Source of the DNA: Bigelowiella natans CCMP2755
Taxonomy: Eukaryota; Protista; Cercozoa
DNA length: 64,000 nucleotides
NCBI GenBank assembly: GCA_000320545.1
Contig: ADNK01000257.1
Span: 1 to 64,000 of the forward strand
Direction of reading: 5' to 3'
Shown: piece by piece, positions 18,151 to 58,500 of the stretch
Layout of the letters: each line of letters starts with the position of its first letter
Position numbering within the stretch: the first letter of the stretch is position 1
Translations under genes and position numbers: made by a program
Notes under the pieces: generated by a model
What the model was told of the DNA's origin: nothing
Database searches by the model: none
The model's input: the letters and a program-made list of their open reading frames with translations, nothing else

Positions 18151-19231
18151 ATGAGCCATTCGGAGGATGGAAACGAGTCTAAACAGCTCGTCGGAGACTC
18201 TATTCAACTAGGATGTGTGGTGAGGAAAATCTAAAACTCTTGAAAAAATAGCTGAACTAATTAATATGCACCCAATACTAAAGGTCAGTCCACAGCTCGT
18301 ACAAGCTTTGCAGAACGATAGCGTGTTGCCAGGATTACTAGCCCACCTTACTACATCATTACGTGACCAATTTGGTACTATTATTTACTACACCATCCCT
18401 TCCAAAGTGCTAACTATCCGTTACATTAATCTGATAAGGAAATCCGATGTCTTCCGGAGAATTGAAGGGAAAATTAGTTGGTTTCTACTTTAGTGCAAGT
18501 GAGTTGCCATAATTTGTCCATATATGCACAATCTAGGACTGAAATTTTTCTTGGTACAGGTTGGTGTGGACCATGTCGAGCCTTCTCGCCAGTGCTGAGC
18601 AAAGTACCACCACAGAAAATTGTTACCCGTTTAACACTAATATTCCATCCCTCACTAAAGTTTCATGAAGAAAATATGGACGACTTCCGCGTCGTTCTTG
18701 TCAGCATGGACCGTACAGAGCAAGCGGTACGTTTAATCAGTTTTGAAACAATAATTCAGTGGCTGAAAAACAACTTAAAATAGATGCTGGAATACGCCAA
18801 GGGGAAAGGATTCCTTTGGGTACTATCACTGCATCCTTTAACTAACGGTAGTGGAGTATATTTTCGAATTGAATTATTATGATCAGATTGAGTATCGGAG
18901 CCAGCACAGAGACGACCTTATAAAGGAGCTCGGAATCAACTCCATTCCTTCACTTGTGGTTGTTGATACAGAAGGGAAAGTGAGTACCAAGATTTTCTTT
19001 TTAAATTCTTTTATCAATGGAATAATATGATACTCACATAATCTTCAACACAGGTTGTGACTAACTCAGGAAGGCTAGCAATACAATCGAATCCGGAGGG
19101 ATGTGTAGCAGATTGGAAAAAGGGTAACAAACGCTGATCGTCGCATTTTATTTTCGTCAATGTGATATCGTCTATTCGTAGGGTCAAGTGGATTCAAGCT
19201 TCTAAAGTTCCTTTCATCCTGCTGTTGCTGA
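18151..19231 (+). CDS. Nucleoredoxin/tryparedoxin-like thioredoxin
   Basis: Spliced exons give LKGKLVGFYFSA-S-WCGPCRAFSPVL, VVLVSMDRTE, LGINSIPSLVVVDTEGK|VVTNSGR and end SSCCC*. Start uncertain. Confidence 0.88.
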
Positions 19232-20474
19232 CACTCTTCTCAATACAGGATTGAGATTAGAAAAAATAGAAAATATTTAATTAACTACAAATTGTACGCA
19301 TAAGTTCGTATGCTACAATCAAAGTAATGGTAAAAGTAAAAATAGAAACATTTTAATGGGGGATAACATCAGCGTGTCATCGTGGTGGCTTTCTCTAATG
19401 CTTCTGGCATTAAGAGTAAGAGCCTGAGAAGTATTGCAGCATTTAAAGTTGTCCCCATCTACTAATAAAGTATACGAATCTCTATCAAAATTTCTATTCC
19501 CAGATTTCATTCCTAAAAATCTGCGCTGGCGCGTTTAGTTTACCGAGATAACTCGGACCAGCTGAATGTGTACCAAATTATATTTAAGCTAAGAAATCAG
19601 TCTCACGCAATTGCATATTTGCACTTACTGCATGAAGCTGATCAAAAGGGCACCGGCAGTGCTGACTTCAAAATAGCTGTTACGGACTACTCACATAGTT
19701 CCTCCAATGTTTTTCTTCGACAAGCTGTGCGAAGCGATTTGTCGTTAGATTTGATGTGCAAAGGACCATTGTTCTAGTAGTCATTGTTGTCTAGTTGTCA
19801 TTAGCGAATCAACACGTTTGCAAATGCAGCGTCCAAGTGTGCCAACCTAGCAACGCGCAACTTCGGGTGCAAAAGTGCTCACAACTTGCTGGCCGATGAT
19901 ATTTTTGGTTGATCAGGCTAGCAGGTGGGGCATCATGACACATGCGTGTGCGGAGCATCACATTGCAAACCACTAGCTAGACCATGATGCTCATCAGACA
20001 TGACAAATGTCATGTGTCAATTGCTGGATGGAGCCATGGAGAGTGTTGTGGTGGGTGTGAAGAGCACGTGATCTTTTGCATCGGATTGTTGTGGGGGCAC
20101 GGATCTCGACTTGTCAACGCTCAAACAACGAGCATCACCAGATCACACAAGCAACCAACGATGGTGCTGTGAGGCAACTTGCTAGCTTGAATGATGAGAT
20201 GATCCAATCAGGCTAGCAGGGTGCCATTCATTTGAGACCTGAAGGATCACTTCGCTTCACCGGCCTTGCTTTCATTTCGCGGTTGAATTGCCACAATGAT
20301 GAGGAACACAAACAATGACACCATGCGCGTTCCAGCGAACGAGCAAGTGCACGAACGAACGAAGTGGTGTCCTGACGGTGGAGTTGAAAGGGTCACTGGG
20401 TGTGTGGGTGGACCTGGAAGGATCACAGCACGCCTCAAATCGCGCACTCACATTTCATCCAAACGTGGGAGGCA

Positions 20475-21445
20475 ATGAACAATGAACAAGAACAAGAACA
20501 AGAACAAGAACAATGATGACGAACCACACTTCCAAAACGTTGCAAGACGTTTGCAGTGTGCAAAGTGCAGTGCCTCGAACTGGCTTCAGTGAGGACTGTG
20601 ACCAGCAAACCAACTGGCTGGTTTTTCAAAGTGGCACAATTCAGTCATTGTGAAGCAATGACACCAGCGGCAAAGTTCTGGCGGCGCAATAAAAGGCCTC
20701 CACTCTGAGCAAAAGCTTCCTGAAGGCCATGTCCACACAACGATCCACGTGTGGATCGTTTGAGGGGCCCCCCAGCAGAACTTTGGTTTTGAAAGAGTCT
20801 GGAGCGTCAAAGAATGAAGAGCAGAAGGAAGAAGCTGGGCCCAGAGCTGACCTCATGCGCGAGAGAAGTTTGTTTCTCTCTGCATTCAAGTGAGTGCAAT
20901 GATGGATGAGGTGGTTGACACTTTGAACAACTTCAGCATTGCAAAGAGGACAAACCGAGGAAGAGGGGGGCAAATTGCAAACTTCAGCCCTGTGTTCGTC
21001 AGTTTCGCAAGTCCCAGCGCGGAGCTGAAATTTGATCAACACTCCTGAATTGTCATGCCAATCATCGAGATGACACTCAAACAACCTGGAAGCTGGCCTT
21101 CCAATGTGGCTCTTCGCCCAGGCTCTGAGTTTGCAGATTGGGGCATCGGGTTTGACGCACGAACAAAAGCTGCGACACAAGTTGCCATTGGTGGACAGAT
21201 GAGCCCTGACTCTTCGATTGAGGTCAAGATCAACCAGTTTTGGACAGCAGGTCTGGTCCAAGTTGACTGGCGTGTCCAAGCCATGGGCAGAAGGCCACAG
21301 GCAGTGATGCGGTGAAGAACAGACCTGGTGTTGTGACCAACTTGAGCGCAGAGCATCAGCCTGATCCAGGGAAAGGTGCAAAAGATCCTTTGTCATGGAT
21401 TCATCAGGTTGCTGACGTGTCCTGCTCAGGAGGCTCATGAGAGAC
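20475..21445 (-). mobile_element. Non-LTR (LINE) retrotransposon 3' fragment with C-terminal CCHC zinc knuckle and simple-repeat tail
   Basis: ORF 20641-21684 contains KLRAW..HLDD..FQLRAGT..CPLCNAEVVQSVNHLIHHC..ER, the LINE ORF2 C-terminal signature. A short 3' UTR and an (AACAAG)n/AATGAAC tail follow at ~20475-20512. Confidence 0.7.
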
Positions 21446-21660
21446 TTGAACAATGAACAATGAACAACGATGAAGAACCACATTTCCAAAACGCAACAAG
21501 ACATTTGCAGTGCACGAAACGCAGTGCCTCGAACCAACTTCAGTGAGGACCATTTGGTGAAACCAAAAGGAATCAAGAATGGCATGAACAATGATGATGA
21601 ACTGCATTTCCAAAACGTCACGTGACGTTTGCAGTGTGCGAAACGCAGTGCCTCGAATTG
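20509..21660. repeat. Three diverged copies of a ~75-90-bp unit (LINE 3' end) at 20509-20598, 21463-21552 and 21587-21660
   Basis: Shared core ttccaaaacg..tttgcagtg..gcagtgcctcgaa. Copies differ repeatedly by TG versus CA at the same positions. Confidence 0.85.
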
Positions 21661-21891
21661 GCAAAAAGAGCTGTCACAGATCAAAAACCGCAGTGATTTG
21701 GAATGTCGTCTTTTGCTGAAGGAATTTGTTGCTCATTTCGTTTTTCGACTCATGCGTTCGTGGCGACTTAACGGGAAGCCTGACGTTTGTAAACAGCTTC
21801 GATTTTAGACTTACGACAAGTAATTCCCAACAATTTTACATGCAAGTAGCTCCAAGTTCGTGAGCCAGACGAAATAGAGCGTTATTGACGA

Positions 21892-22325
21892 ATGGGTTGC
21901 GGTGCCTCCCAAGGTGTGCTAATCGTGAAACCAGCTCAAGGACAAGACGAACAAGAGGCATCCACCCACGAACATAAAGAAACCACTTCTCCTCCACCAA
22001 CAAATTCTTCAATAATGTCCGCGAAAACGAAAATGGCTATTGACTTCGGAGGTTTGAAAGACAACATGTCGCAAATCTTCGCCAAGCATAGCCCTGCCAT
22101 GGTGCCCAAGATACCAGCAATGCTAGCACAGGTGAAGCAGATGGGCTTGGGGGCACTCCGAGGTTTGGTTCAGATGACAAAGCAGAGGATGAATGAGGAC
22201 TTGGAGGTGCCCTTTTTCGATCTGCTCGCTGTCCAGAAGGAAATGACGGATGTGTTCAACTCGAATGCTCCCGCTATGCTGCCCAAGGTCCCATTCTCCT
22301 CCTTTATTTCCACATCCCCCCCCCT

Positions 22326-24604: not shown

Positions 24605-24948
24605 GGGGAATAATTGAAACACAGAACAGAGAACGTTTGCAAAGTATGCATACGTAACGTTGTTGCACGTACGTACATCGTTCACGATTGCCGTGTCGTC
24701 TCAATCTTCCCGCTGCTACGTAATGAGCTGGTCGTAGTACTGAAATACAAGCACATAGGTGTAGCACGTACAAGCTTGTCGTTTTAACAACGTAACGGAA
24801 CACCCCGCCGCATAGCACCAGTCAGATATTAAAAATAAGCGCAACATCTAGAGCTCGCTCTAACTAACTAACATGTTGTTTCTCATGTAGAAGTGCTAGA
24901 GTGCTTGCGGTACTATTTGCGCGCAAGTCTCCACCATGCTAGCATAGT

Positions 24949-25389
24949 ATTCCTTTGATTGTTCAATGAATGCGCAATGATGCAATTGTTGCATGTCAAT
25001 TGGAGCGACCACAACGCACGGACCCCGTGTTGCGCATGCTCGGGCGTTGTCGGGACACGCACATTTGTGCGCTTGTGAGGCACAGCCATTGACTTGCGAA
25101 AAGCTGCTGCGCAGTTGTGAGAGGGAGGTGGGAAACTGCTGTGAGCCCCGCCAGCTGCAGTGCAGAATCAATCAAACTCAAAATTTGAGCTGCTTCATCC
25201 GCAAGCGACACGCTCATGATGCTGGAAGGAACTCAACATCTTAGTGCTCTGTAACAGTGGCATTTGTTGGTCTAGTGTCTCATTGCGCATGAAACTGATG
25301 TCGCAATGAGTCAGCGCCATGCCATCATGATCATTGCTCGCACTCTAGCGAATGGCGCGACCGTTTCACACATCATGGTCCGAAGTCGA
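24949..25389. other. TpA-depleted intergenic patch (probable eroded repeat)
   Basis: No TA from ~24950 to 25241. After that only ttag, gtaa and two CTAG occur up to 25389. Rich in TGCA/CATG. Confidence 0.7.
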
Positions 25390-25789
25390 TATCATAGACA
25401 CGTAATATCATGTACATACTATGCATGCTATTGCTATGTCTATCATGAGTATAGCTCTATTTTTAATCCAGGGTATACTTATTATAGACACGTAATATCA
25501 TGTACATGTACTACATGTGCTATTACTATGTCTATTATCGATCGTTCGGCCGTTTGCTTTGCAATGACAACCATGGACACGGTGTACATATAGTGACAAA
25601 AGAAAGAAACTCTCTAACCTTCTCACGTGCATGCATGCTCTGTGGTGCAACAATGCTGAACCTCTGTGTGCAGTTGCTTGCAAGGTTAATAAATTATGTG
25701 TACATGCAGCAAACCAAAGCGATTTGCACGTTCTCAATCGTTTTTTGAAAAACAAACTCGACATGCTACGGACTGCTCGTCAATGTCAA

Positions 25790-28700: not shown

Positions 28701-29435
28701 TGCTTGAACTAGTAGTTATCCATCATGTTACTTCAAGTTACAAAAAGATAAATAACACTTTTTTAATTACATCCTGTTCCGTTTGGTCCTCCTAATAAAA
28801 AAATTGACGTGTCTGCATCCGGAAGTTGATTCGTGTAAAGTTGGGAGGACCTTTAAGAATTCAAACTTCTTACTTCCGTCGAAATGCCACAGCTCTACCT
28901 AAATGCAATTAAATATGATGTTGCTTACTTTACGCTATTCAACAAACCTTATTTTGGATCTTGCTCATGTTGTCATTATTGTTTGCTGTTGTGCTCACAG
29001 CAAGGAAGTTTCCGTTTGGAGTAGAGAATACTAAATTCTCTACGACTTCTTCCTGGACAATGCACATTTAAGGATTTTTAGAAGACCGAAAGCATCTAAC
29101 TCAAAGTACTTTTGGAAGCTTTTCGATGCAAAATTTCGCAGAGAGATCATATATCTGATAACATTATCTTAAAATTAGAACATTCTTCATCATCGTCTTC
29201 AGGGTTGAGTGCCTATCCATCCACCTTGATGGTTGGTATTTTCCCTGCAAGAGCAACCTTGTGTTAAATTTAGAGTTGTTCACCGAAGGGCGTTAACCGA
29301 TACAAATGAAGCGCGAGATTCTAAAATGTTTGTTGAAAATACGATAAACAACGTGCAAACCAGAGGTAGGGTGGGATGAAAAGCCACAGCCAAGATTACG
29401 CCCAGCTTTGGTCCATCATCGTAGTGGGTCGCCAT
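25790..29435 (-). CDS. AT-rich multi-exon hypothetical protein, possibly WD40/beta-propeller
   Basis: Fragments MATHYDDGPKLGVILAVAFHPTLPL, VELWHFDG and SDGLLVCAAEEEGGALHLWKI resemble WD40 blades. Many short introns; model not fully resolved. Confidence 0.45.
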
Positions 29436-29545
29436 GAGTTCCTGTCAATTTGCATTAAGAGCCTCAAATTTACACCCGCGACAAGAATTTATTGCTTGCT
29501 GCAATCATAATCATGAAGTGGAAATATTCTTTCCTCGCTTTGATT

Positions 29546-30447
29546 ACACTGATCAAGGATGTCCCTGAGGATTGTCCTGTTGAATTTTGCAGTTGCTCAA
29601 TGGGTTCCCAAAACAGTCCATGCCAGCAGCCTGTCCCTCACATCGCAAAACGACTACAACCAGGAATGCCTCAGGCAAAATCGCAAAACGATGAAACCAA
29701 ACAAAACTTGTCAGTCACATGGGTGCATCCAGATCTCAGCTCCAGAGTTCTGGAGCTGTCCAATTCTGGAATTGTCCAGGTGTGGAATGCACTGTCAAAC
29801 TGCATAGTGGTGCACCTGTCGATCTCTAGCTAGCTAGATCTGGACAATTGAACTTGAAAAGGCATGCTAGCATGCCAGCATGTGTGCAAAAGAGCTGGAT
29901 CGACTGGACGACCCGCTAGCCCGCACCCAGCGCACGTCCACTAGCTAGCTAGTCCAGACGTGTGAGTGATCGCAATGACGCTGCCCGCTGGTGCGATCGC
30001 CGCAAACACAAACAACTGGACAACACCGTGTTGGACAAACGAATTGCATCCAGCGATTGAGAAATCTGGAAATGGCGTCAGACTGGCCAGCTAACCATGC
30101 CTAGATGCAAACAGCATGCCAAGCTAGCTAGCTAGCCAGCTAGCTCAGCACGCGTGCGCTCATCTGTTTTGATCAGTGCTTGAAGAAAATCCACTGTGTC
30201 TAGTTTCAGAGTTGTTGTCAGCAGCAGAGCAGTGAAAGTCCGCTAGAAGTGTCACAGAGGAGATCAGATAGCATTGCATGACACTGAGATGTGGCATCAC
30301 GCACCTGAGCAGGCAATCTAGCAGTCTAGCAGTTCTAGAGCTACGTCTCTGGCTAGCTGGACCCAGCGCAAAGGAAGCACACAGAATGCCGTGCGTTGCG
30401 CAGGCATGCATGCACAGGGAAGAGGGGCAAATCTAGCACATGAGTTC
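29546..30447. other. TpA-depleted, CTAG-rich repeat domain
   Basis: In 29821-30440, about 20 of about 23 TA dinucleotides lie inside CTAG, including (CTAG)3 runs. CTGG and CCAG are also frequent. Confidence 0.85.
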
Positions 30448-42293: not shown

Positions 42294-44252
42294 ATGTCCA
42301 AAATCCTCGAGATCGAGTACCGGTAGATCTACGCGATGAATGATCATAAATTGATTATTGTTTATGTCTCTATGTAAAAATGTCCTTGAATCTACCACGG
42401 GGTGAAGGCCCATCTACCGTACAGGCTCTAATTCGAAAGAGGGGAAGGGGACGCTGGTCCTGGCTGGCAAGAACAGGCCTGTCTCAGGTACATGGGAGCC
42501 TTCAGATCCCCATGGGTTCCTGTTTGCTCAGCTAATAGTGATCATGCGCGAACGATTGCAAGTCCAATGGCTCTAGTTGTGAAATGATACACGTAGTCAT
42601 AATTCTTCTTCCAGGATGAATCCTTCTCTAAGCCAAAGCATTGGCATCGTTGAAGCCACTGATGAAGGTGGTCGTAGCCCTTCTAAGGAAAATGAGAAAG
42701 AAGTCCCCAATGTGCCCAACTTCACCAAAGACGTTGATAAGAAGGAAAATGTCGACACTTCGGCATCCATCGATGATATTGTGAGTCAAATCACCAAACT
42801 CTCGATCAAAAAGTCCGACACAGAAGAAGATTCCAAAGGTCATAAAACTTCTGGAGAGGGTTAACTATTTGATTTAGTGTTTCTCATATGCAACAGTGAA
42901 AACGGCTTTTACATGGGATAGTCGGTGCCTGAAACACGAGGCGAACCGTGACCATCTAGAGAAACCGGAAAGAGTGCGTAAATAAGCTATCGTATTCACT
43001 ATTATTTCTCTCACATTTTACATATTGCCTAGGTAGTGGAGATTTTAAATGAAATAAAGCACCAGGGCCTTTTCTCGAAGTTACAGATGGTGGAGGGGCG
43101 TCTGGCAAGTAAGGAGGAGTTGTGTAGAGAGGAGGGTGGATATGGTCCTCACACGAAAGACCATGTCAAAACAGTTGATGATTCCGTACACCTCACCTTC
43201 AAGCCTAGAGTAAAAAGCGAGGACGATCCGGAAGACTCCAAACTGTATCCTCCTTGTCACTACATAGATTCCGACACATACGTAAATGAATACTCCAACA
43301 TTGCTGCGAGGACAGCTGTTGGTTGTGTGCTGAACGTAACAAAATCTGTTCTAGAAGGGAGCGCTACAAATGGGTTTGCAGCCATACGCCCCCCTGGCCA
43401 TCATGCCGGGTTCCACAACTTCAGTGGATTCTGCCTTTACAATAATGTTGCTGCAGCTGCAAAATATGCGAAGGAAAAATTTCCTGAGATCTGCAAGAAG
43501 ATTCTGATACTTGATTGGGATGTTCACCACGGAGATGGAACTCAACAGATATTTTATGAAGATCCCAGTGTGCTATTTATTTCTATCCATCGATTCACGA
43601 AAGATTTTTTCCCCTGCACAGGACGAGCGAGCGAAGTTGGTAAGGGTCGTGGAAAGGGCTATAACATCAATATACCGTTAGAACAGGCTGGGCTTGGAAA
43701 TCAGCATTATGCTGCAGTTTTCAAGCACATCGTTATTCCAGTGGCCCAAAGATTTTCGCCCGACCTCATCCTCATTAGTGCAGGGTTCGATAAACTATTT
43801 ATTTTCTCATTTCTTTAATTAACTGAAACTCTCTTTAGATTCGACTGCGTCGTAGGTGACCCTGTTGGAGGAATGAATGTACCAAATAAAAAATACAATG
43901 ATTATAAGCTTCTTTCCTAATTATGATACTTTTCAATGGCTAGGTCACTCCTGAGGGTTTGAAAGCACTTACTGAAATGCTAATGGCCCCGGAAATACAG
44001 AAAGATGGCCGAATTGTAATGGTCTTAGAAGGGGGCTACAATACTAAGATGGTCGCTAAAGCTGCGACTCGTTGTCTAGAGGCTCTGATGGGACACCACG
44101 GACCTCAACTGGATCCCATAAGTATTGATCGAGAAAATACAACGGATGGCAAATTTTCGACTACAATACAGAATTGTCTCCGAGTTCACTCCCGATATTG
44201 GCCTTTGAAGTATGAAATTCGAAGATCTTCGAGGAGACCCAAAAAGGCTTAG
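42294..44252 (+). CDS. Class II histone deacetylase (HDA1/HDAC6-like, single catalytic domain)
   Basis: HLEKPERV, RPPGHHA, GFCLYNNVA, ILDWDVHHGDGTQ, SAGFD, GDPVGG, VLEGGY. 5' exons uncertain. Confidence 0.93.
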
Positions 44253-45095: not shown

Positions 45096-45421
45096 TGTAG
45101 CGCGTACCACTACGCGGGCACAAGTCACGTGCGACAACAAAGGGGTTGTCGCGGATATAGAATATAGATAACGTAGATATTAATACAGCATAGGCACGTG
45201 GGTTCCGGCGGGACTCATGGCAGCACACCGGAAGTGTGCTGCCCCACGTGCGGCGGCATTCGCGAAAGCTTCGCGAATGATTACGCAGTGCACGATTTAA
45301 TAAAAATATAATCTTTAATAAAAATAAACACAACTCTTCAAAAGGAAGCAAACGTGCCTTTCCCCCCCCCTGCCTACTTGTGCACGTAGCGCCTCGGCCT
45401 GTGAACACCTTACGCGCAACA
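45096..45421 (+). repeat. 5' LTR
   Basis: tgtagcgcgt...gcgcaaca, identical to 50486-50811. Confidence 0.97.
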
Positions 45422-45426
45422 ACCTT

Positions 45427-45444
45427 TGGCTTCCACACACGGGA
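45427..45444 (+). promoter_or_regulatory. Primer-binding site (tRNA 3'-end complement)
   Basis: TGGCTTCCACACACGGGA begins 5 nt after the LTR end. TGG complements the tRNA CCA. Cognate tRNA not identified. Confidence 0.7.
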
Positions 45445-45460
45445 AACGATTTGACTAACA

Positions 45461-48400
45461 ATGTCACAGCAGCTAGAAGAACAGCAGGACTTTGGCTCGC
45501 AGGCCGTGCAAGGGCACGAGCAGAAACAGGAAAGGAAGGGCGATACGGACGCTAAGGAAGGAGGAGGAACACCTCCACAGGCACCGCCGGGACCAGCACC
45601 CGGGATTAAGAAAGCAGATGCAGCAGCAGAGGCACTGGAGAACTTCTACGAGGCGGACGACGAGGACGTGGCCGCCGAAAGCAAGAAGGTCGTAATGGCA
45701 TTACGAGCCTTGCGACCCAGGGCGAGCAACTACGCCAAACTGAAAGTATCGATAGAATACAAGTATCAGACACATGATGTTTGGGCAGCTATCATGCAGG
45801 ACATCATGGATTACGAAGCAGACTTACCTCCAGAGTGGGCAGCTTTGTTTAGGAACGACGGGGGTCTGGGCGCCTCGCGGGGGACGACCCAGAGCACCGT
45901 CAAGCAGCAGCAGCCGGTACAGCGGAACACCCAGTTCATGTCTGTTAAAACAGCACCGGTTATGATAACGAAATACAACGGGAAAAGAGGTGAGGCAAGG
46001 AGGTGGTGGAAGAACGCTAGGAGTATACTCTGCGACTTTACCCCTAACCCCACCGAAAACGACAAGCTCAAATGGCTAGCTATAATAAAGCAAGCCATGG
46101 ACCTTTACGAGACAGGCAGGACCCGGATCAGGCAGCTAGAGAAAATACACACTACAGTTAGTGGGCTACGAGACGTTGAGGCGATAATGAAGGCTTTTGT
46201 AAATGAACAGGATGCTAACTCCCTACCCCAGGCTATTAGAAAATACAGAGCAATGATGCAGCATGAGAGAGAACCTGTTAGAGACTTTGCCACGCGCTTC
46301 CAGGATATGATCGACGAACTACATGATTTTAATTACAACACAGGTGATGATCAGGCAAGGTTTGAAGAGTTCAAGTTAAAGATAAAGGAATCCACTTACG
46401 TTACGGAGAAAGGCTACACCACGATGGAGGCAGCAGTGCAGGCTATATCCCTACGCGAGCAGGAGCAGGACCGCAAGTTTACCAGCCCTAAGGTACCTGG
46501 CATAGGAAACATTAACGCTATTAAGCCGCAGCGAGACTGGTACAAGGACAGGGAAGGTAACCGACGTTGCGGATACTGCTCACGTAAAGGGAAACACACC
46601 GCTAAAGACTGCAGAGACAGGAAAGAAGGACGACCCAGGATGACGATCAGGCAGCTCAACGAACACTACGAGAAGTTAAAGAGAAAGAAAGGCAGAGGAC
46701 AAGGATATAACAACAGCAAATGGCAAGGCAGCAACAACGGGAAGAACAATAAATATAAGAACAAAAAGCAGAACAGTATCAATGCTATACAGCAGCAGAT
46801 AAACGGAATATTAGATCACCTTAAGCAGGCGCCGACGAAGACAGCAGTACCAGCAACGCAGGACCAAGACAAGCCCATGACCCTAGACGACATAAAGAAC
46901 TTAGGAGTATGCAACATTAATGACGAAGACGCTAACAGGACTATCAAAGTTGCTATGACCAAGGTTAAAGTTAAAGACAGCTACGGAGACTACAAGAAAC
47001 TACCTGCCCTTTGGGATAGTGGCAGCATGCCGAAGTCCTTCATAAGCCTAAGCACAGTAAGAAGGTTAGGACTATTGGATCAAGTGACTAAGAAAGAACG
47101 TAAATATGCTCAAGCAGACGGAAGCTCTTCCATGAAGACCGTCGGTGAGCTAATGCTAAAGCTACAGATACCTGGCAGCGACGCGGAGACCCAAATCAAG
47201 ACCCGAGTAGCCATGACTTTATCCATGGAACTACTCCTCGGACAGGATGCCCTAGAAAAATTAGGGGGGATCATATCATTCTACAATCACAAGATATACT
47301 TTGCTAAGTTGCCAAAGAAGTCAGGCAGGACCATCAGCCAGAACATGATACGGCTTGACGAGTGGACCTCTGAGTCAAGCGTTAATGCGTTAGAGTTTAT
47401 GGACCTAGCGGACAACAAGCTACCTACACCTACCGAGCTACGGAAGAAGAACCCCGGCAAGACCATCCGACAGATAACGGAGCTACTGGACAAGACCCCC
47501 CCAGCTGATGATTGGGATATCGACAAAGGCAAAAAGTACATTAATAAAATATTAAACGAGAAGTACTCTGACATCACCAAGCCGACGACGAAGCCCTCCA
47601 GCAAGCTTACCCCAGTAAAGATCGAGCTAAAGAAGGGATACGAAGAGTGCATCATCAATGACCCAGAACATAGGCGACCGGAAGCGGACTGGGAAAAGAT
47701 AGAGTGGCAGATCAATGAATGGGCAAAGGAAGGGAAGATAGAGCCAAGCAACTCACCATGGAACGTGAGACATGTGCTAGCTAAGAAACCTACTTACCCT
47801 TTCTTCCGCCTGGCGCACAACTTCATCCGCCACAACCGAGTAATAAAGAGGATCCAGACACCTACACCAAGGATAGATGACGTTATTGAACACGTCATAG
47901 GATACAAATACTACTCTTCCCTAGATAAAAATGAATCATACATGCAGACACCCATCCACAAAACCTCCCGCCCCATTACCGCGTTCTCCAGCAGGCACAG
48001 GAAGTGGCACTTCGTCGTATTCCCTTACGGCCTAAGCATATCAGGGGATGCGTTCAGTAGTCAGAACTACAGGGCATACACACATGATGGGATGGCGTCT
48101 GTGTTGTGGGTGTTTGTGTTTGTGTATGTGGATGATGACATAATATGTACCAACACAGTCGTCGCTCAGATCTTCCTCCTGGAAAATATATTTATTAGGT
48201 TTGCACACTTCGGTTTTACTATTAGACTGCAGAAGTGTACATTCCTAGCTACAAGAATCAAGTGGTGTGGATATTACCTGGAGCAAGGCCGCATCACCCC
48301 AAACCCCGAGAAAGTAGCAGCACTACAGCAAGCCCCTAAACCTAAGAATGCAAAGGAGTTAAAGTCATTCTTGCAGACTGCAGCTTGGATACTACGTAGG

Positions 48401-50434
48401 TTCTCCCCTACCTACGCTAGGACTGCAGCTGCTTTTACTACTGCTTACCGGAAGGAGAACTCTGTAGGCCTCAGCTTCGCTAAGGTGTGGGCCAAGGCTG
48501 GCCTTGATGCCCACTTCGATAACCTAATAAAGTTATGCAGCAACACCCTATTGAATGCTAAGCTAGACACTACTAGACCAGCTACCCTATGGACAGACTG
48601 GTCTAAGCTAGGTATGGCTGCTGTACTTACCCAAGACCAGCAGATCATACGGGTGTGGGGCAGGGCCTGCACAGCAGCTGAGGCCAAGTACAGCCCTACA
48701 AAAGGAGAGTATAAAGCCATGACTGAGGCGCAGAGGAAACTAAGATACTACCTGCTGTCGGTGCCCAGCTTCACCTTAATGACTGACCACAAGCCCCTCC
48801 TAGGCATCGACCGCAAGCTCGAAGCGCCTAACGATGAGTATGCAGCTATGAGGGCGGACACGGAAGAGTTTAGGGACAAGAGGACAGTGGTCTACGCACC
48901 AGGAGACAAGCAGCTTGCTGACTATTTCAGCAGGCTGTTCGAAAAGAAAGTCCCTACCCAGGTCACCCCTATGGTTAACGCGATTACCTTCGAGGACGGC
49001 GACTTCCTGCCTGAGCCAGAGGAGCTCCAGCACCTTCAAGAACACCTGGATAAATACAAACACAAGCATGAGGTACTTAGTGATAGGATATATGTATACA
49101 CTAATAATGTTAGGCGTACCTACGTGCCACGGCGGACCAGGGGAGCCCTTCTCTTTACCGCCCATGGACCTGCACACGTAGGAGAAAACCATATCACTGC
49201 TCTACTCTACCATTACTACTGGCCCTACAAGCTAAAAGAGATAAGGACATACCTGCGTGGCTGCAGGTGCTCCAGCTTGAAGGCGGCAGGCGTCGCCACC
49301 AAGGAGTCCAGCAAGAGCCGTGCATCTAAGAAAATCAAAGCAAGGAACTTCTTAGATATCGTGCAAATTGATGTTTATAAGTACGATGGCTATCACTACC
49401 TTACCTTCGTTGATGTGGCCACTGGAAAGTGCTGGGTTAAAAAGATTATCAAGGTCAACGTTGCTAAGAAGAACAAAGGCTTATATAAGCAGAGGCTTAC
49501 TAACTGCTACCGTACCTGGGAGTCTGAGCTCCAGGCTATCCCTGATGAAGTTAGCATAAACAAGATACCAAAGAAGTTACATGTGGATAATGAGACCTCT
49601 CTTCTACAGCTACCACACCCTAATATTGATGCCTCACCTGTATACTATGCCCAGTCCAACTCCAAGGTAGAGCGACTCCACCGCACCTTGGCCAACCTAA
49701 GCAGGATAAATAGCACCACACCAGACAAGATACAAGGGTTAGTAAACGACACCTTCACGTCTGGGGGAGGTATCAAGGATAAGGAGAGGGAAGAAGGCGA
49801 CGACAACGACGACGATACCGAGAGCGAAGACGAGAAGGTCCCGTACGATGGCCGAGTTCTAAAGGAAGGACAGTATGTTAGGGCCAAGGTAAATCTGAGA
49901 TCGAGAAATAAACAAGACCCCTTCTGGGGTGGCGTTGCAAAGGTTACCGAGAGGAAGGGGAGGAAGCAGTACTACATCTATGATGGGAACAGGGTCACCT
50001 TGCGCCACATCAGTCACCTAAAGAATTATGATATCGGTGAGAAGCTCCTAGAGGATGTTAAAGTAAACCCTACTGTGTGGGAGCGAGCAATGCCTTGTTT
50101 AGGACCCCGACCTAAGTTCGATGTGGAATATGGAAACAATAAGGTCAGGGTGAACGACGATTGGCGCATGAAGATTGTCTATCTAGGCTACCCTGGATTA
50201 CGAAATATGGAGAGGGTAGCTATGAAAATAAAGGACGGAAAATATCAGCTACTCTACCTAGCTGTTCCCGACTTACCCTTTGAGCACTGGTATAAGGTCC
50301 TGGGGGACCTTGATGCAGAGGGCTGGTATGGACACGAACCTAAGGACGAAGGTGAGTTCTGGGTAAGCGACAAAGGAGATAAGGTTAGAGAGGAATCTAT
50401 TACCTGGTGGTTGGTGAAGTTCCGAAAGCGATGA
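45461..50434 (+). CDS. Gag-Pol polyprotein (Gag, zinc knuckle, aspartic protease, RT, RNase H, integrase, extra C-terminal MTase-like domain)
   Basis: 1657 aa, uninterrupted. Motifs: CGYCSRKGKHTAKDC, LWDSGS, YVDD, TDWS and TDHKPL, HGPAH..CRC, IVQID..HVDNE..SKVER, SH3-like GQYV..RHISHLK. Confidence 0.96.
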   Translation: MSQQLEEQQDFGSQAVQGHEQKQERKGDTDAKEGGGTPPQAPPGPAPGIKKADAAAEALENFYEADDEDVAAESKKVVMALRALRPRASNYAKLKVSIEYKYQTHDVWAAIMQDIMDYEADLPPEWAALFRNDGGLGASRGTTQSTVKQQQPVQRNTQFMSVKTAPVMITKYNGKRGEARRWWKNARSILCDFTPNPTENDKLKWLAIIKQAMDLYETGRTRIRQLEKIHTTVSGLRDVEAIMKAFVNEQDANSLPQAIRKYRAMMQHEREPVRDFATRFQDMIDELHDFNYNTGDDQARFEEFKLKIKESTYVTEKGYTTMEAAVQAISLREQEQDRKFTSPKVPGIGNINAIKPQRDWYKDREGNRRCGYCSRKGKHTAKDCRDRKEGRPRMTIRQLNEHYEKLKRKKGRGQGYNNSKWQGSNNGKNNKYKNKKQNSINAIQQQINGILDHLKQAPTKTAVPATQDQDKPMTLDDIKNLGVCNINDEDANRTIKVAMTKVKVKDSYGDYKKLPALWDSGSMPKSFISLSTVRRLGLLDQVTKKERKYAQADGSSSMKTVGELMLKLQIPGSDAETQIKTRVAMTLSMELLLGQDALEKLGGIISFYNHKIYFAKLPKKSGRTISQNMIRLDEWTSESSVNALEFMDLADNKLPTPTELRKKNPGKTIRQITELLDKTPPADDWDIDKGKKYINKILNEKYSDITKPTTKPSSKLTPVKIELKKGYEECIINDPEHRRPEADWEKIEWQINEWAKEGKIEPSNSPWNVRHVLAKKPTYPFFRLAHNFIRHNRVIKRIQTPTPRIDDVIEHVIGYKYYSSLDKNESYMQTPIHKTSRPITAFSSRHRKWHFVVFPYGLSISGDAFSSQNYRAYTHDGMASVLWVFVFVYVDDDIICTNTVVAQIFLLENIFIRFAHFGFTIRLQKCTFLATRIKWCGYYLEQGRITPNPEKVAALQQAPKPKNAKELKSFLQTAAWILRRFSPTYARTAAAFTTAYRKENSVGLSFAKVWAKAGLDAHFDNLIKLCSNTLLNAKLDTTRPATLWTDWSKLGMAAVLTQDQQIIRVWGRACTAAEAKYSPTKGEYKAMTEAQRKLRYYLLSVPSFTLMTDHKPLLGIDRKLEAPNDEYAAMRADTEEFRDKRTVVYAPGDKQLADYFSRLFEKKVPTQVTPMVNAITFEDGDFLPEPEELQHLQEHLDKYKHKHEVLSDRIYVYTNNVRRTYVPRRTRGALLFTAHGPAHVGENHITALLYHYYWPYKLKEIRTYLRGCRCSSLKAAGVATKESSKSRASKKIKARNFLDIVQIDVYKYDGYHYLTFVDVATGKCWVKKIIKVNVAKKNKGLYKQRLTNCYRTWESELQAIPDEVSINKIPKKLHVDNETSLLQLPHPNIDASPVYYAQSNSKVERLHRTLANLSRINSTTPDKIQGLVNDTFTSGGGIKDKEREEGDDNDDDTESEDEKVPYDGRVLKEGQYVRAKVNLRSRNKQDPFWGGVAKVTERKGRKQYYIYDGNRVTLRHISHLKNYDIGEKLLEDVKVNPTVWERAMPCLGPRPKFDVEYGNNKVRVNDDWRMKIVYLGYPGLRNMERVAMKIKDGKYQLLYLAVPDLPFEHWYKVLGDLDAEGWYGHEPKDEGEFWVSDKGDKVREESITWWLVKFRKR

Positions 50435-50477
50435 AGGTCTAAGGGAATAAGGAAGGAAGGAAGGAGCAACGTGACTT

Positions 50478-50485
50478 GGGGGAGG
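50478..50485 (+). promoter_or_regulatory. Polypurine tract
   Basis: GGGGGAGG directly abuts the TG of the 3' LTR. Confidence 0.8.
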
Positions 50486-50811
50486 TGTAGCGCGTACCAC
50501 TACGCGGGCACAAGTCACGTGCGACAACAAAGGGGTTGTCGCGGATATAGAATATAGATAACGTAGATATTAATACAGCATAGGCACGTGGGTTCCGGCG
50601 GGACTCATGGCAGCACACCGGAAGTGTGCTGCCCCACGTGCGGCGGCATTCGCGAAAGCTTCGCGAATGATTACGCAGTGCACGATTTAATAAAAATATA
50701 ATCTTTAATAAAAATAAACACAACTCTTCAAAAGGAAGCAAACGTGCCTTTCCCCCCCCCTGCCTACTTGTGCACGTAGCGCCTCGGCCTGTGAACACCT
50801 TACGCGCAACA
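50486..50811 (+). repeat. 3' LTR
   Basis: Identical to the 5' LTR. Confidence 0.97.
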
Positions 50812-51105
50812 TGAAGGCAAACATCATCGGTCGGTGAATTGGGCTCTACGCACAAGCTAGCGCACAGGAGCATGTGTATTTTACCCTCATGGGCTTTGAG
50901 AAGACAGTGCTAACGTGGGATTCCGGCATGCGTGAAAATGTGACGGCGGGCAACGTAGTTGGCCGCGGTGGGACGGCAATAGATGGTTTTCGCAAAAGTT
51001 TTTACAACAACTATTGGAGTAACGGAATTGCCAACTTGTAGAAATTTGTAAACTCATACGCTTTCGCAAGTTTCGACAAGTTTTTCCAATATAATTTCGG
51101 GGAAG

Positions 51106-51705
51106 GTGGTTTATTTTTCGGTGACAGATTTGAACTGCCTTCTCTCGAGGGAACGCCTGATGGGAAGGAAAAGGCGGCGGCAGATGGTGATGTTGGCAGT
51201 GGTTGCGGTGGCGGTGGCCAACAAGAGACAGCGACTAGACCCTATTCCCATTCCTGCTCTGCGCATCGAATCAGATCTCGAACGCAAAGGATGGAACGAT
51301 GACCATTTGGTTCGGTGGTGTCGCTTCACAAGGAGTGAGATGCTCCGCATTGCACGAGCATGTCGCATTGGTCAGTGGAACTGGACCTCATCACGTGATG
51401 AACACTCGTGGCTCGAGGGCATGGTCCTCTTTTTACGTCGTCTTGCATGCCCTTGTGAGTGGGACGAACTTGTTGAGACTTTCGGTAGAAGTCCTGGATC
51501 CACATCCCGGATTTTCAAAGACGTGCTCCTTCGCATGTTTCCATCGTGTGAGGACCAGATGTGCTTGCACAGAGATCATTTGATGAACAATCTGGAACGT
51601 TTTGCAGACGCAACCCGCCGCAAAGGTGGTGAATTCTCTCAGAGAGACACCGTTGGACACATCGACGGCACAATCAGAAAGTGTTGCAGACCGACAATTA
51701 CAATT
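51106..51705 (+). pseudogene. DDE_Tnp_4 (Harbinger/HARBI1-type) transposase, N-terminal part, hypermutated
   Basis: RFTRSEM..LEGMVLFLRRLACPC.W..L..FGRS..SRIF..RKGG..VGHIDGTIRKCCRP (family pattern LRRLAYP...G[FY]IDGT...RP). Later catalytic motifs not found. Confidence 0.85.
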
Positions 51706-52800
51706 GGTGCACATGCGCATGTGTGGCATGGCGCGCGCAGTGTGTCGCACGCAGCGTGTGCCTCAACCGACGTGCACGTGCGCAGTGCATGTGCACATGC
51801 GCATGCGATGCATGCAATCACAAGCTGGCGCGCGCCACGCGATGCCGTTGCAATGCACGTCGTCGCATCGCAATTCTCATGCACAACAATTGCAGCTAGA
51901 GCCAGAATTGCAGATTCAATTGGGGCCAGAATTGTGGCCAGAATTGTGGCCAGAATCATCGCTAGAATCATGGCCGTGATTGTTGAAACATCCCACATTG
52001 CCATGTGCATGCACGGCAATCTAGCAATGCAGCCGATGCAATGGACACAGTGACAGCATGCTCAACGTGTGCATGCATGCACATGCACATGCAAAAGGTT
52101 GCTCACAAGAACAAGGAAGGTCGCCCGAGTGGATGCAGTCTTGGCATCGGCATGGTGACAGCATGCACAGTGCGCACATGACACATGACATTGCATGTCC
52201 ATGATGAGGAGGATCATGAGGACAAAAACATGTGCAGAAACAAGCAAGCCAAGGCAATTGAGGAATCCAAGGAGTCCAACTTGCACGTTGTCTGCAATTG
52301 ATTCGGGTTCAGTCCACATCACTCTCGGTTCATCATCAATCCTAGCTTCACGATGCTTTCCATCATCGTCTTCATTGCAGTGAGCATGTTTTGCTGCATG
52401 TCGAGCTGTTGGGGTTGGGGTGACATGCACAACAAAGAAATGTCAAATCCAGAAATGAAAATAGAAGACACAGAAAAATGGGACATTCATAAAAAAGAAA
52501 CATCATGTGGAATTCATAATATTTTCATAATTTTATTGGAATCGAATTGCTATTCTATAACTTTTCCATACTATGAATGTAAATCTAGATCATCTACGAA
52601 TACAAACAAAATCAAATATCATTCTGAAAATTTGAGGATTGCATTGTTATCTACAAAAAATATGAATATGAATAAACATGAAATTATTTGTATAGCATAT
52701 GTCATTCCAACTATTAGTTTATTACATAATCATTTTCATAACAAAAAAATAAATATACAACATTTAATGACAAAACAATAAAAAAATTTAACACAGATGA

Positions 52801-53424
52801 TCAAAGCATGTTAGAAGTTTTAGAAGATATATTTGAGTGCACTCTGTCTGTAGTCCATGCATGCACAAGGTCAGGGTGAGGGGGGTTGACCTGCAACTTG
52901 GCTTCATGCTCCCTGCGTTCCCGATCACGCACCGCATCAGCTGCAGCCTTTTTTTCCTCAAGCTTTGCCTTTTCATTGAATTCCCATCGTCTGTAATCAT
53001 ATTCTGCAGTCTTGTCAGTGAGAGAGAGCAACACTCTCTCTAGGAATCCCCGTTGTTTCTCTTGTTCTTCACGCTGGAATTCTCGTTCCGATGTGCGATT
53101 TTCCCGTTCGAACTCAGCTTCGTTTTTCATTGCATCTGCTATGGCACTGAGTCCTGCACCGAGCGAGCTCCTGCCCCCCCTGCCAATGGAAACCCTCCGA
53201 ACCAAATGGTCATCGTTCCATCCTTTGCGTTCGAGATCTGATTCGATGCGCAGAGCAGGAATGGGAATAGGGTCTAGTCGCTGTCTCTTGTTGGCCACCG
53301 CCACCGCAGCCACTGCCATCATCAGCATCTGCCGCCGCCTTTTCCTTCCCATCAGGCGTGTGGTCACCCCCCAATCTTCCCGGGGGAGAAGGCAGTTCAA
53401 ATCTGTCACCGAAAAATAAACCAC
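52801..53424 (-). CDS. Transposon accessory ORF: transposase-derived N-terminus fused to a charged coiled coil
   Basis: N-terminus through ..GWNDDHLVR is nearly the same as the transposase ORF. It then continues EAEFERENRTSEREFQREEQEKQR.. Confidence 0.55.
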   Translation of the reverse strand: MVYFSVTDLNCLLPREDWGVTTRLMGRKRRRQMLMMAVAAVAVANKRQRLDPIPIPALRIESDLERKGWNDDHLVRRVSIGRGGRSSLGAGLSAIADAMKNEAEFERENRTSEREFQREEQEKQRGFLERVLLSLTDKTAEYDYRRWEFNEKAKLEEKKAAADAVRDRERREHEAKLQVNPPHPDLVHAWTTDRVHSNISSKTSNML

Positions 53425-54107
53425 CTTCCCCGAAATTATGTTGGAAAAACTTGTCGAAACTTGCGAAAGCGTATGAGTTTACAAATTTCTACAAGTTGGC
53501 AATTCCGTTACTCCAATAGTTGTTGTAAAAACTTTTGCGAAAACCGTCTAATGTTCTTCATGTCACTATCTCAGCCGTTGGTAAAACCGTAGGAATACAC
53601 GTGTGTGTTTGAATGTAACCTTAGTACACGTGCCAATGCGTAGTTGCACACTTTGCTCCTTGTAACAGATAACAAGCCCGTTTTTCAGGCGTCGGAATCC
53701 TTTAGAGTTTGTCGAATTCCTTTTGGATTTCCAATAATTCCTCGTTGTCGCAGGTAGAAAATGGGACCAGTGTTGGACACTAGGAGAGTTTTTTTGCTGG
53801 AAACGTTCAGTTGTGCAGAGCTAAGGTAGAAACCGCTGATCTTAGCTTTGGCTCGATGTACTTGATAGGTTTTGTTGTCGCAGGCTAAAATACCCCCCAT
53901 TACTAAACTTGAACGAAGATCATGTTCTATTCTGTGTTCTGGATTACCGCGCAGCAATGGGTGCTCACATATACGCCCTGGTTGATACAGAAGCCGAGGA
54001 GAAAAGAGGAAGAGGCCTTGGCACACAATTGTGTGATTCGTACAAATCCCAAACAACTCTTTCTATATTGTATTCGATATTTTGGGTGGTTTCCATCTTT
54101 GTGAAAA

Positions 54108-55548: not shown

Positions 55549-58500
55549 TGCGTGTGTGTGTGTGTGTGTGTGTTTGATTAGATTTAGTTTAAAAAATATC
55601 ACCCGAACATTAGCTACTCATTAAATTGGCACCTGCACTCATTGGTAAAATCTCTGCGCCCTGTTGTGCATCTAAATGCCATAGGTTTGGGAGTTGATTT
55701 TCTTGGACCTACTGCCTCTCCAACGGTAACTCCGCCCAGCCACTCTCCCACAGGACCACCGACGTTTTACCCATCGCCTTATCCAACTCACGACCCCACG
55801 AAAGAGCCAACGCCATATCCGACAATGGCAGTTCCTACGACGGCCTCTCCTAGTAATTCTGGAGCGACTTTGTCACCCACCAGCTCTCCGATCATAGTCA
55901 CAGATGGCCCGACTATGCGTCCTACACACTATCCTACTCCGTATAGAACACCGTATCCTTCAGAGTCTCCGGTCAATGCACCAACGCCCGATCCCACCTG
56001 GTTTCCTACCGTCTATCCTTCCCCAGATCCAACAGCATACCCGTCTGCCTCACCGACTCCCCCCCCCTCAGATTTCCCAACAAAGAGCCCTACCGAGTAC
56101 CCATCGGCCGCGCCAACACACAACGTTGTTTTGCTTAATGCTGATGATAAGGCGCTGCAACAAAATGACACAAACGTTTTCAGAGACTCTTCCTCATCCT
56201 CCTCCTCCTCCTCCTCCTCCTCCTCCTCCTTTTCTCACTCTTCTCCTGTATACTTGCAATCTTGCCGCCGCGACACCTGGGAGAGCATGCCCAGCTGGGC
56301 AAGAATTCCGAAATATAAGACCGACAAGAGTTTGAACACAACTTCGCTTATTCAAAATATGAATGGCTATAGAGCTCAGATCCCAAGAATGGGTATTATT
56401 TGGACGTACAACAAACAGGTGGATTGTCCCTACAAAGAGAGTGGCTTGAAGGTGCATCGAATTTCATTTTGCTGTCATGAGAGTGGAACCTCAACGTCTT
56501 TTGATTCTCAGAATTGGCACAATAGGAAAACATGGGGGGGGGAACTCCCAGCAAGAAACGAGGATGTGACGATCCCAAGAAAAACAAAGGTTATATTGAA
56601 GGTTCCCTTGTTCATATATATGTTGATATTGTTAAGTATTCACTTCGGAACTCGTATTTGCCAACATGATATAGATACAGATTCTCAGTGCTTCCAGTTG
56701 TCAAAGCCTTGCTGATACTCTGGATATATTACTATTCATTTCCTCTACAGGTTCTAATCAGCTCTTGCTCTTTATTGGATAGCTATGGGAAGATTATCAT
56801 CCCAGAGGATTCTGAGCTCATATTCAGTGACGCGCCAATCAATTTGCGAACAAAAGGCATTGATGTACATGGAAAGCTGAGAATCGGTGGAGAGAATTGT
56901 CGCATTCGGAACAAGATAACCATCACCCTGTACGGGTCTCGCTCCGGTAGAGACGAAAAGGGCATTATTGCTTTCAACGGATCAACACTAGACATGCATG
57001 GGATGATGTATCAGCCTAGCTGGGCGGCTCTGGCAAAGACCGCAAACAAAGGCCAAAAGGTTGTGTGGCTTCAACGCTGCGTTGGATGGAAGAAGGGCAC
57101 CGAAGTCGTACTTACTACCACCGAGTTTAAAGACTTCCGAGGCCACAACTTCAACGAGAAGGCTGTGATTGCAAAGAACCAATGCAAGGGCGAAAGGGTG
57201 AATGGAAAGCTGCTCAAATTCGGAAGGATCGTTTTGAAAACTAAACTCAAATACGGACACTACGCGGCGAAGGACGAGTATCAAGCTGAAATGGCCGTTC
57301 TCTCCAGGCAGATTCTGATCCAAGGGGACTCCGAGGACTCCCTACCCACTGACACAGAAAAGCCTGTTTGTAACAAGGGCGATTTCGGACAGCGAATGCA
57401 CAACGAGTTTCCGTGTAAATCAACACACCTTACAGGTTACGGTGGACATGTGCGGGTCGAAGGTAACGCTGTCGGGCGCATTTCTTCAGTTGAATTCTTC
57501 CGTATGGGACAGACCAATATCAAGGCGAAGTACCCGCTACACTTCCATAGGATGAGAGACGCTGGAAGGTCGTCGTATGCAACGGATAATGCAATTCACC
57601 AGTCGTTCTACCGCTGCATAGTCATCCACGGAACCAACTATCTCACGGTGTCGCGCAATGTAGCATTCGATGCCATCGGGCAGTGTTTCTACATGGAGGG
57701 CGGTAATGAGGAGTACAACACTATCTCCTACAATCTCGCCGCGCATATCCATCCAATTGGCCTTCCTCCGATGTTCAACAAGCAGGAGTTTGAGGACGTG
57801 TTTGAGACGAGCTCCCTGAGGCAACCTGCCGATATATCCGCCTCTCCCTTCTACATCACAAACCTGCAAAACGAGATCGTTGGCAATTCTGCGGTGGGAG
57901 GCTGGTCCTCCTATGCCGTTCCAACGCTCCCAAACGTGATTGGGCAAGATCGTGTGAGAGACAAGAATGTCAAGCCGTACAAGCGAGCCACCTTATTGTT
58001 TGACGGGAATATGGGCCGATCTAGCGGATATTGGAGTAAGTTAGGAGGCTGTATGTATATCGGTGGGTTCCTAGAGGAGAGGGAGAGTGACAGGAAGCTA
58101 GTGTACAATGGAGGGAGGAATATGATACCGAAGAGCATCAATGGAGGGAAGCGCGCTTCTCGTGATCCTGAGGACGAGAACGGTAAAAATATCTTCAACT
58201 ACTACTCCAATATAAAACTCGCACTATGCAGTGTTGGGGCTACTGATTGGAATTTGCGTGGTCATTGGAGCAACATCGATATCTACGATCAGTTGGATCG
58301 ATCCTTCAACGTATTTGGCGAGGTGAGCTTTACTTCTACATCCGTAACGTGCCGCACCCAAAATGGTAATAGCCTCCAGAACGTGTCGGCACAGGGACTG
58401 ACAAACTTTGAGAAGCGGTGGGGCTCCAAGGACTACATGGCCTTTCGCATGTACGACACTAACCAGAAACATCTTATCGACGATATGCAAATCAGGAATT

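What the first reader, a model, noticed from the sequence alone, without database searches (positions are those of the whole stretch)
20509..21660. Three sibling repeats differ by reciprocal TG/CA pairs, pointing to an ancestral TA
Seen: gaacCAc (copies A and B) vs gaacTGc (C); cagtgTGc (A and C) vs cagtgCAc (B); ggacTGt (A) vs ggacCAt (B); acgtTGc (A) vs acgtCAc (C). Inference: TG/CA pairs arise when a symmetric dinucleotide is hit on either strand independently in each copy. The ancestor is either CG or TA. Neighbouring CpGs (aaaacg, cctcgaa) are intact in all three copies while TA is absent, which favours TA and shows mutation happened after duplication. The copies also look like stacked LINE 3' ends.
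Basis: partly seen in the sequence, partly recalled or inferred. Interest (0 to 1): 0.72.

Follow-up and report, generated by a model that had tools for sequence, protein, structure and literature searches.

The report
LINE tails with TA dinucleotides erased
Three stacked ends of a jumping gene in the alga Bigelowiella natans have lost almost every TA letter pair to TG or CA, likely through the TA-targeting mutation process already described in this alga in a 2026 preprint; here the surviving TAs are mostly in CTAG, a likely new clue to the unknown enzyme.

Summary
The window is Bigelowiella natans (host HDAC 100% identical to a Bigna1 protein). The repeats are 3' ends of one high-copy LINE family on the minus strand; copy A carries about 760 bp of ORF2. 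Other copies still read TA at cited sites 1 and 3, likely at site 2, and only weakly at site 4. Tyr (TAY) columns of the least-mutated ORF2 are Cys/His/Arg in 98 of 103 cells of other copies; Arg columns are Cys/His in 16 of 236. The stack holds 1 TA where 74 are expected. A 2026 preprint measured TpA>TpG/CpA hypermutation in this species and found RT genes among TpA-depleted sequences. Corrections: the copies are dispersed insertions, not local duplicates, and 'aaaacg' is TG in most copies. Extras not found in the preprint's main text: surviving TAs are enriched in CTAG (12 of 43 versus 172 of 3798), loss reaches about 690 bp into single-copy flank, and an intact young Gypsy is untouched.

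The parts
20473..20516 (-). Simple-repeat 3' tail of LINE copy A (GAACAA/ATGAACA units on +)
   Evidence: TRF; depth rises from single-copy level at 20470
20517..20690 (-). 3' terminal region of copy A shared with B and C; holds cited sites 1-4 (20525-6, 20541-2, 20559-60, 20597-8) and a fifth (20581-2)
20691..21446 (-). 5'-truncated ORF2 C-terminal remnant of copy A with C-x2-C...H-x4-C zinc knuckle; 7 of 7 aligned Tyr columns are TGY (4) or CAY (3)
   Evidence: relatives carry RVT_1, distant full-length relatives carry RVT_1 and endonuclease
21447..21570 (-). Copy B: short 3' end with its own tail, joined directly to A's 5' truncation; upstream part shared with other copies to at least 21562; right end approximate
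21583..21662 (-). Copy C: about 80-bp 3' end with its own short tail
19780..20472 (.). TA-depleted left flank, single-copy at >=80% likeness in two DNA runs; 9 TA versus 42 expected, 7 of the 9 in CTAG
   Evidence: no Pfam family at cutoff in 9 short ORFs
21663..21768 (.). TA-free right flank, single-copy; 0 TA versus 8.5 expected

Best explanation
These are three 5'-truncated 3' ends of a high-copy LINE family in Bigelowiella natans whose TA dinucleotides have been replaced by TG or CA on both strands, likely by the host's TpA-specific A:T>G:C hypermutation acting on the inserted DNA, with adenine deamination the proposed but untested chemistry. Shown: the anatomy, the species, near-total TA loss, TA surviving in other copies, both product types within one copy. 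Inferred: an A in TpA is converted (A>I, read as G) on either strand, so top-strand hits give TG and bottom-strand hits give CA, and sister copies end up with reciprocal letters. Inferred: it acts on chromosomal double-stranded DNA after insertion, because one copy has both products and single-copy flanks are also depleted. Inferred: silenced chromatin guides it and it lags behind insertion. Inferred: the stack arose by reverse-transcriptase template jumping or repeated insertion at the family's own ends. About 0.9 for TA ancestry, 0.8 for the same process as in the preprint, 0.5 for a deaminase.
For: Species: HDAC ORF 100% identical over 90% to jgi/Bigna1/46431; 10 of 16 ORF2 hits are Bigna1 models; Bigna1 is the B. 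natans assembly; window TA frequency 3842 of 64000 = 6.0% equals the preprint's genome figure. Depletion: 1 TA versus 74 expected in 20473-21660, rho(CA+TG) 1.61. TA in other copies at sites 1, 2, 3 and three more sites of B and at 20616, 20642, 20665, 20746 in A (rows read). Tyr columns: Cys 39, His 51, Arg 8, Tyr 3, other 2 of 103 cells; Arg columns Cys/His 16 of 236. Outgroups: column 125 is Tyr in 21 of 23 distant LINEs and CAT in the window; column 94 is Tyr in 15 of 18; L001 has TAT at three codons where the window has TGC, CAC, TGC. Both strands in copy A: 6 T>C and 5-7 A>G TA-loss changes on the sense strand. Process: 230 of 231 mutations in two viral regions were A>G/T>C, all at TpA, and RT, endonuclease-RT and DDE domains are enriched among TpA-depleted CDS. 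B. natans TEs carry an H3K9me3/H3K27me3 state. Stacking is common in the family: many joints from a truncation point to another tail in contigs.
Against: Site 4 is unresolved (TA lower bound 0-6%) and site 2 is mostly TG (66-82% G) with little TA in contigs. Non-TA changes are common: of 43 residue differences between the window and P0022, only 11-13 are explained by TA loss, 4 by CG loss, 11 by transversions only, so subfamily divergence is mixed in. Some reciprocal Cys/His columns have Arg in the least-mutated copies (e.g. column 236), so a few TG/CA pairs may come from CG. Copies are related, so cells are not independent events. Contig depth is not a copy count and X21 may be another strain (tool caveats). 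No target-site duplication was found. No enzyme was tested.
Confidence: 0.8

Rival explanations
1. Methyl-CpG decay: the ancestor was CG and TG/CA arose by cytosine deamination on either strand.
For: rho(CG) 0.56 in the stack versus 0.83 in the window; 16 of 236 Arg cells are Cys/His and 4 window residue changes fit CG loss; at 20738-9 other copies are mostly CG or TG.
Against: Does not explain 1 TA versus 74 expected; TA seen in other copies; Tyr conserved in outgroups; cctCGaa shows no decay at >=4% in 4 of 4 runs. It is at most a minor second process.
Confidence: 0.04
2. Same TA>TG/CA outcome, but made by an error-prone polymerase during repeated patch repair of silenced DNA (Pol eta-like WA hotspot; recalled from own knowledge), or via a methylated or otherwise modified adenine, not by a direct deaminase.
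For: Some window-derived A:T>G:C changes lie outside TA, e.g. 20565, 20675, 20715 follow an A (rows read); Tyr>Arg double changes (8 of 103 versus 0 of 117 in Cys/His columns) suggest patch-wise fixation.
Against: In the preprint all such de novo mutations were at TpA, none at ApA; candidate ADAT2/3 homologues exist. Most non-TA changes here cannot be polarised.
Confidence: 0.25
3. The changes were mostly fixed in partly mutated master elements and copied by retrotransposition, so the three copies inherited rather than acquired their TG/CA states.
For: Site 2 is TG in about two thirds of laid copies; column 130 is His even in Tyr-rich P0009/P0012; subfamily variants exist at 21494-6.
Against: Single-copy flanks are depleted too; Tyr conserved in 21 of 23 outgroups is lost, and Bigna1 models have 0 Tyr in 768 and 473 residues, unlikely in a working ORF2. 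Non-autonomous masters could still pass changes on, so this is a partial contributor.
Confidence: 0.15
4. Editing of the LINE RNA or cDNA during retrotransposition (ADAR- or APOBEC-like).
For: ADAR favours a U before the edited A (preprint).
Against: One copy has both TG and CA products in similar number; flanks and a probable DNA transposon (51243-52460) are also depleted; RNA-stage editing would be strand-restricted.
Confidence: 0.03

Closest known systems
TpA hypermutation of foreign DNA in Bigelowiella natans (bioRxiv 10.64898/2026.01.13.699255; parts 1-4 of 5 of the main text read, figures and supplements not seen)
   Same: Same species, same TpA>TpG/CpA change on both strands, same TpA-low/CpA+TpG-high signature, RT-bearing sequences named as enriched targets.
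   Different: The preprint measured de novo mutation in an NCLDV and a virophage region and inferred TE targeting from Pfam enrichment. Here a single LINE family is polarised copy against copy. Its main text has 0 hits for CTAG, flank, spread or retrotranspos.
Repeat-induced point mutation (RIP) of fungi (own knowledge; compared in the preprint)
   Same: Dinucleotide-specific transitions on both strands of repeats after insertion; possible leakage into flanks.
   Different: RIP is C>T and creates TpA; this destroys TpA and raises GC. The preprint's main target is single-copy, so homology pairing is not required.
APE-type non-LTR retrotransposons (LINEs) with simple-repeat tails
   Same: RT and endonuclease in relatives, C-terminal CCHC knuckle, 5' truncation, repeat tail, excess of 3' ends.
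   Different: Clade not assigned; no target-site duplication found; B and C could be SINE-like elements sharing the LINE tail.

Membership tests
B. natans TpA hypermutation | Host is B. natans | tested here: met
B. natans TpA hypermutation | [quoted passage not shown] | tested here: met
   20509-21660: 0.01 and 1.60; 20001-21000: 0.05 and 1.63 (my formula for the combined rho may differ slightly from the preprint's)
B. natans TpA hypermutation | Cluster of three consecutive 1-kb windows passing both cut-offs | tested here: not met
   On this grid only 20001-21000 passes; 21001-22000 is 0.17/1.47, 19001-20000 is 0.78/1.26. The island is about 2 kb; this is the preprint's search rule, not a property of the process.
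B. natans TpA hypermutation | Direction TA>TG and TA>CA, both strands | tested here: met
B. natans TpA hypermutation | Target is foreign or mobile DNA | tested here: met
   LINE ORF2 remnant; nature of the left flank unknown
B. natans TpA hypermutation | Raised de novo mutation rate; caused by an A-deaminase | not testable with these tools
   Needs line-resolved reads on TA-retaining copies and genetics; the preprint itself only proposes the enzyme
APE-type non-LTR retrotransposon (LINE) | ORF2 with RT and apurinic-type endonuclease | tested here: met
   Indirect: 77-79% identical relatives carry RVT_1 above cutoff; 4 of 6 distant relatives over 1100 aa pass the Exo_endo_phos_2 cutoff, a fifth is just under. 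These domains are truncated away in the window.
APE-type non-LTR retrotransposon (LINE) | C-terminal CCHC knuckle, simple-repeat 3' tail, 5' truncation | tested here: met
   Three Cys invariant in 23 of 23 outgroups; zf-RVT only below cutoff; tails; truncations
APE-type non-LTR retrotransposon (LINE) | Target-site duplication | tested here: not met
   No exact match over 6 nt outside the tail motif; mutation or blunt insertion could hide one
APE-type non-LTR retrotransposon (LINE) | Clade assignment by RT phylogeny | not tested
   No tree built
Fungal RIP | C>T transitions that raise TpA | tested here: not met
   TpA is depleted
5mCpG decay | CG ancestor, general CpG loss | tested here: not met
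   a minor CG-derived component remains possible

The most novel reading that the evidence does not exclude
B. natans runs a reverse-RIP genome defence: a chromatin-guided adenine-editing system that erases TpA from LINEs and DNA transposons on both strands after insertion, spreads several hundred bases into single-copy flanks, lags behind fresh insertions, and spares the palindrome CTAG, a sequence rule that could identify the enzyme and argues against an ADAR-like UAG preference.
Probability: 0.4. Interest if true: 0.62.

Novelty: new member of a known kind. Interest (0 to 1): 0.35.

Why it matters
The process is striking but already reported for this species, so the finding mainly confirms it. 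It adds copy-against-copy proof that retrotransposons are hit, which the preprint inferred only from domain enrichment. The CTAG sparing, the flank depletion and the untouched young Gypsy give testable constraints on the unknown enzyme and its targeting. Practically, TA content can rank copies of the family by how far they have been mutated.

Tried and rejected
Degenerate 3'-end patterns found 0 matches in viral contigs and 0 in metagenome contigs; a protein scan gave 1 locus from 115 candidates. Pfam found no family in the window's own ORF2 frame and none at cutoff in 9 short flank ORFs. Folding the 3' ends as RNA gave z -0.74, 0.23 and -2.24: no conserved stem-loop shown; C's score is likely due to its palindrome. 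No target-site duplication. A strand-aware test of product context showed TGC excess but is confounded by mutated TATA runs, so no 5'/3' preference is claimed. A possible second A:T>G:C signature at ApT (e.g. 20565, 20610, 20851, 21085, 21468, 21492) was noted but cannot be polarised from truncated tables. Three look-ups of earlier findings returned nothing. PMC12730881 (Amorphochlora genome; term search only) has 0 hits for TpA or dinucleotide.

Full report
Observation. The three copies exist at 20508, 21462 and 21586 with 74-83% identity to A. All four cited TG/CA swaps are real and a fifth lies at 20581-2 / 21535-6 / 21659-60. Reciprocal pairs exceed random placement of the same number of transitions (3 versus 0.50, 2 versus 0.34, 3 versus 0.30; the comparisons share sites). 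The copies sit in the window's longest TA-free gaps (20690-21769 and 20214-20690). 20473-21660 has 1 TA versus 74 expected and rho(CA+TG) 1.61.

Organism. The HDAC ORF at 43033-43815 is 100% identical over 90% of its length to jgi/Bigna1/46431; the next hit is Amorphochlora at 57%. Ten of the 16 proteins hit by the repeat's ORF are Bigna1 models (3 of 3, 7 of 13). Bigna1 is the Bigelowiella natans assembly (passage in 10.1101/2025.03.17.643675).

Anatomy. On the minus strand each copy ends in a simple-repeat tail. Copy A continues for about 760 bp into an ORF2 C-terminus with a CCHC knuckle. Its relatives at 77-79% identity carry RVT_1, and distant full-length relatives carry RT, most also an endonuclease. 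Laid at 80% likeness, 903 and 941 contig pieces of two DNA runs fell on the stretch; summed depth was 53,884 at the 3' end against 66 in the flank for X3. The tool warns this is no copy number, but the family is clearly large and 3'-biased. Joints from a truncation point to another tail recur in many contigs, so stacking is a family habit. Template jumping by non-LTR RTs is described (search listing and abstract starts only: PMC8594491, PMC8857657); insertion into its own ends is the alternative. No target-site duplication was found.

Ancestral state at the cited sites. laid four runs on copy B with all 39 rows at >=4% shown; one search turned single-letter shares into lower bounds for TA. Site 1: >=0.31, 0.29, 0.30 in X3, X11, X15 and >=0.59 in raw RNA reads (X21). 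Site 3: T at 21551 in 13-55% with no A>G row at 21552, on thin coverage (21 reads in X21). Site 2: >=0.02-0.06 in contigs and >=0.16 in X21, where C is only 0.13, so TA exceeds CG. Site 4: >=0.05, 0.06, 0.00, 0.03, unresolved. Uncited sites: 21535-6 >=0.23-0.60, 21494-5 >=0.11-0.19, 21541-2 >=0.07-0.18. Controls: cctCGaa has no C>T or G>A row in any run. aaaaCG is T at 21492 in 82%, 87%, 70% and 89%, with G>A absent in three runs and 7% in X15, so it is a TG/CG subfamily variant and a poor 'intact CpG' argument.

Independent polarity from ORF2. With P0022 as the least-mutated reference, 14 other sequences (the window plus 13 proteins; P0003, P0009, P0012 and P0017-P0021 were left out as near-duplicates of the reference or of P0006, or as mostly non-homologous) give at 9 Tyr columns His 51, Cys 39, Arg 8, Tyr 3, other 2 of 103 cells. 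At 23 Arg columns only 16 of 236 cells are Cys or His. In the window 7 of 7 aligned Tyr columns are TGY or CAY; 2 columns failed the alignment filter. I picked 24 of the 150 listed distant relatives; 23 aligned. Column 125 is Tyr in 21 of 23 and column 94 in 15 of 18; other columns are not conserved that far. L001 has TAT at three codons where the window has TGC, CAC and TGC. Cells are related, not independent events. Against a pure story: only 11-13 of 43 residue differences fit TA loss, 4 fit CG loss, and column 236 looks CG-derived.

What is known. bioRxiv 10.64898/2026.01.13.699255 (parts 1-4 of 5 read; figures and supplements not visible) reports mutation-accumulation lines of B. natans with about 1000-fold raised A>G/T>C rates in two integrated viral regions, all at TpA. 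It finds RT, endonuclease-RT and DDE domains enriched among TpA-depleted CDS, compares the process to RIP and proposes ADAT2/3-like deaminases.

Mechanism. Shown: TA>TG and TA>CA occur together in copy A (5-7 and 6 on the sense strand), which argues against RNA- or cDNA-stage editing. Inferred: A in TpA is changed on either strand of chromosomal DNA. The chemistry is open: deamination about 0.5, error-prone synthesis or a modified adenine about 0.25. B. natans TEs lie in an H3K9me3/H3K27me3 state (passage), a plausible guide. A Gypsy element at 45096-50811 with 100% identical 326-bp LTRs and a 1659-aa open frame has rho(TA) 1.12, so fresh insertions are not yet hit, or that family escapes.

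Extras. (1) CTAG sparing. With islands defined only by rho(TA) and rho(CA+TG), 12 of 43 surviving TAs are CTAG versus 172 of 3798 outside (p 4e-7); with looser limits 24 of 85 versus 160 of 3756. The looser set includes CTAG tandem runs near 29900-30150 that are not independent, and this is one 64-kb window. The preprint's main text has 0 hits for CTAG, and one search for 4 of CTAG, TpA, Bigelowiella, adenine deaminase, transposon found 0 papers; its Fig. 2B and tables may still show it. (2) Flanks. 19780-20470 has 9 TA versus 42 expected and 21661-21769 has 0 versus 8.5, though both are single-copy at 80% likeness. This is either spreading or an old unrecognised repeat; unresolved. (3) Tyr>Arg (TA>CG) occurs in 8 of 103 cells versus 0 of 117 at Cys/His columns (p 0.002; about 6 independent events by eye, and selection on Cys/His is a confounder).

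Verdict. Real feature, interpretation essentially right, process already described. New member of a known kind, interest 0.35.

Noticed in passing
window 45096-50811: Intact-looking Gypsy LTR retrotransposon with 100% identical 326-bp LTRs, a 1659-aa open frame and no TA depletion (rho 1.12): an internal control for a young insertion.
   Followed up: partly
window 50977-53553: Inverted pair of about 350-bp segments (92% identical) opening two ORFs. 51243-52460 is TA-depleted (8 versus 73). The left ORF looks like a Harbinger-type DDE transposase remnant by recalled motif only; Pfam found nothing.
   Followed up: partly
window 24900-25400 and 29300-30150: Two further TA-low, CA/TG-high islands of unknown origin; the second contains CTAG tandem runs.
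   Followed up: partly
window 21613-21630: Copy C has a perfect 18-bp palindrome; other copies read AA at 21622-3 (82%), so a two-base change completed it, likely hairpin-templated.
   Followed up: partly
window 20565, 20610, 20675, 20758, 20851, 21085, 21468, 21492, 21627: Many non-TA sites where the window has G/C and other copies A/T lie in ApT context; a possible second signature, unpolarised.
   Followed up: no
window 21447-21562: The last ~100 bp are about ten times deeper than the LINE body, and RNA reads continue upstream into different sequence (108 reads at 21550), hinting at a SINE or second family sharing the tail.
   Followed up: no
window 56670-59630: 986-aa uninterrupted ORF with G8 and CEMIP beta-helix domains.
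   Followed up: no
L001 1082-1180: Short ORF2 C-terminal fragment of a related LINE in a metagenome contig, with TA retained.
   Followed up: yes
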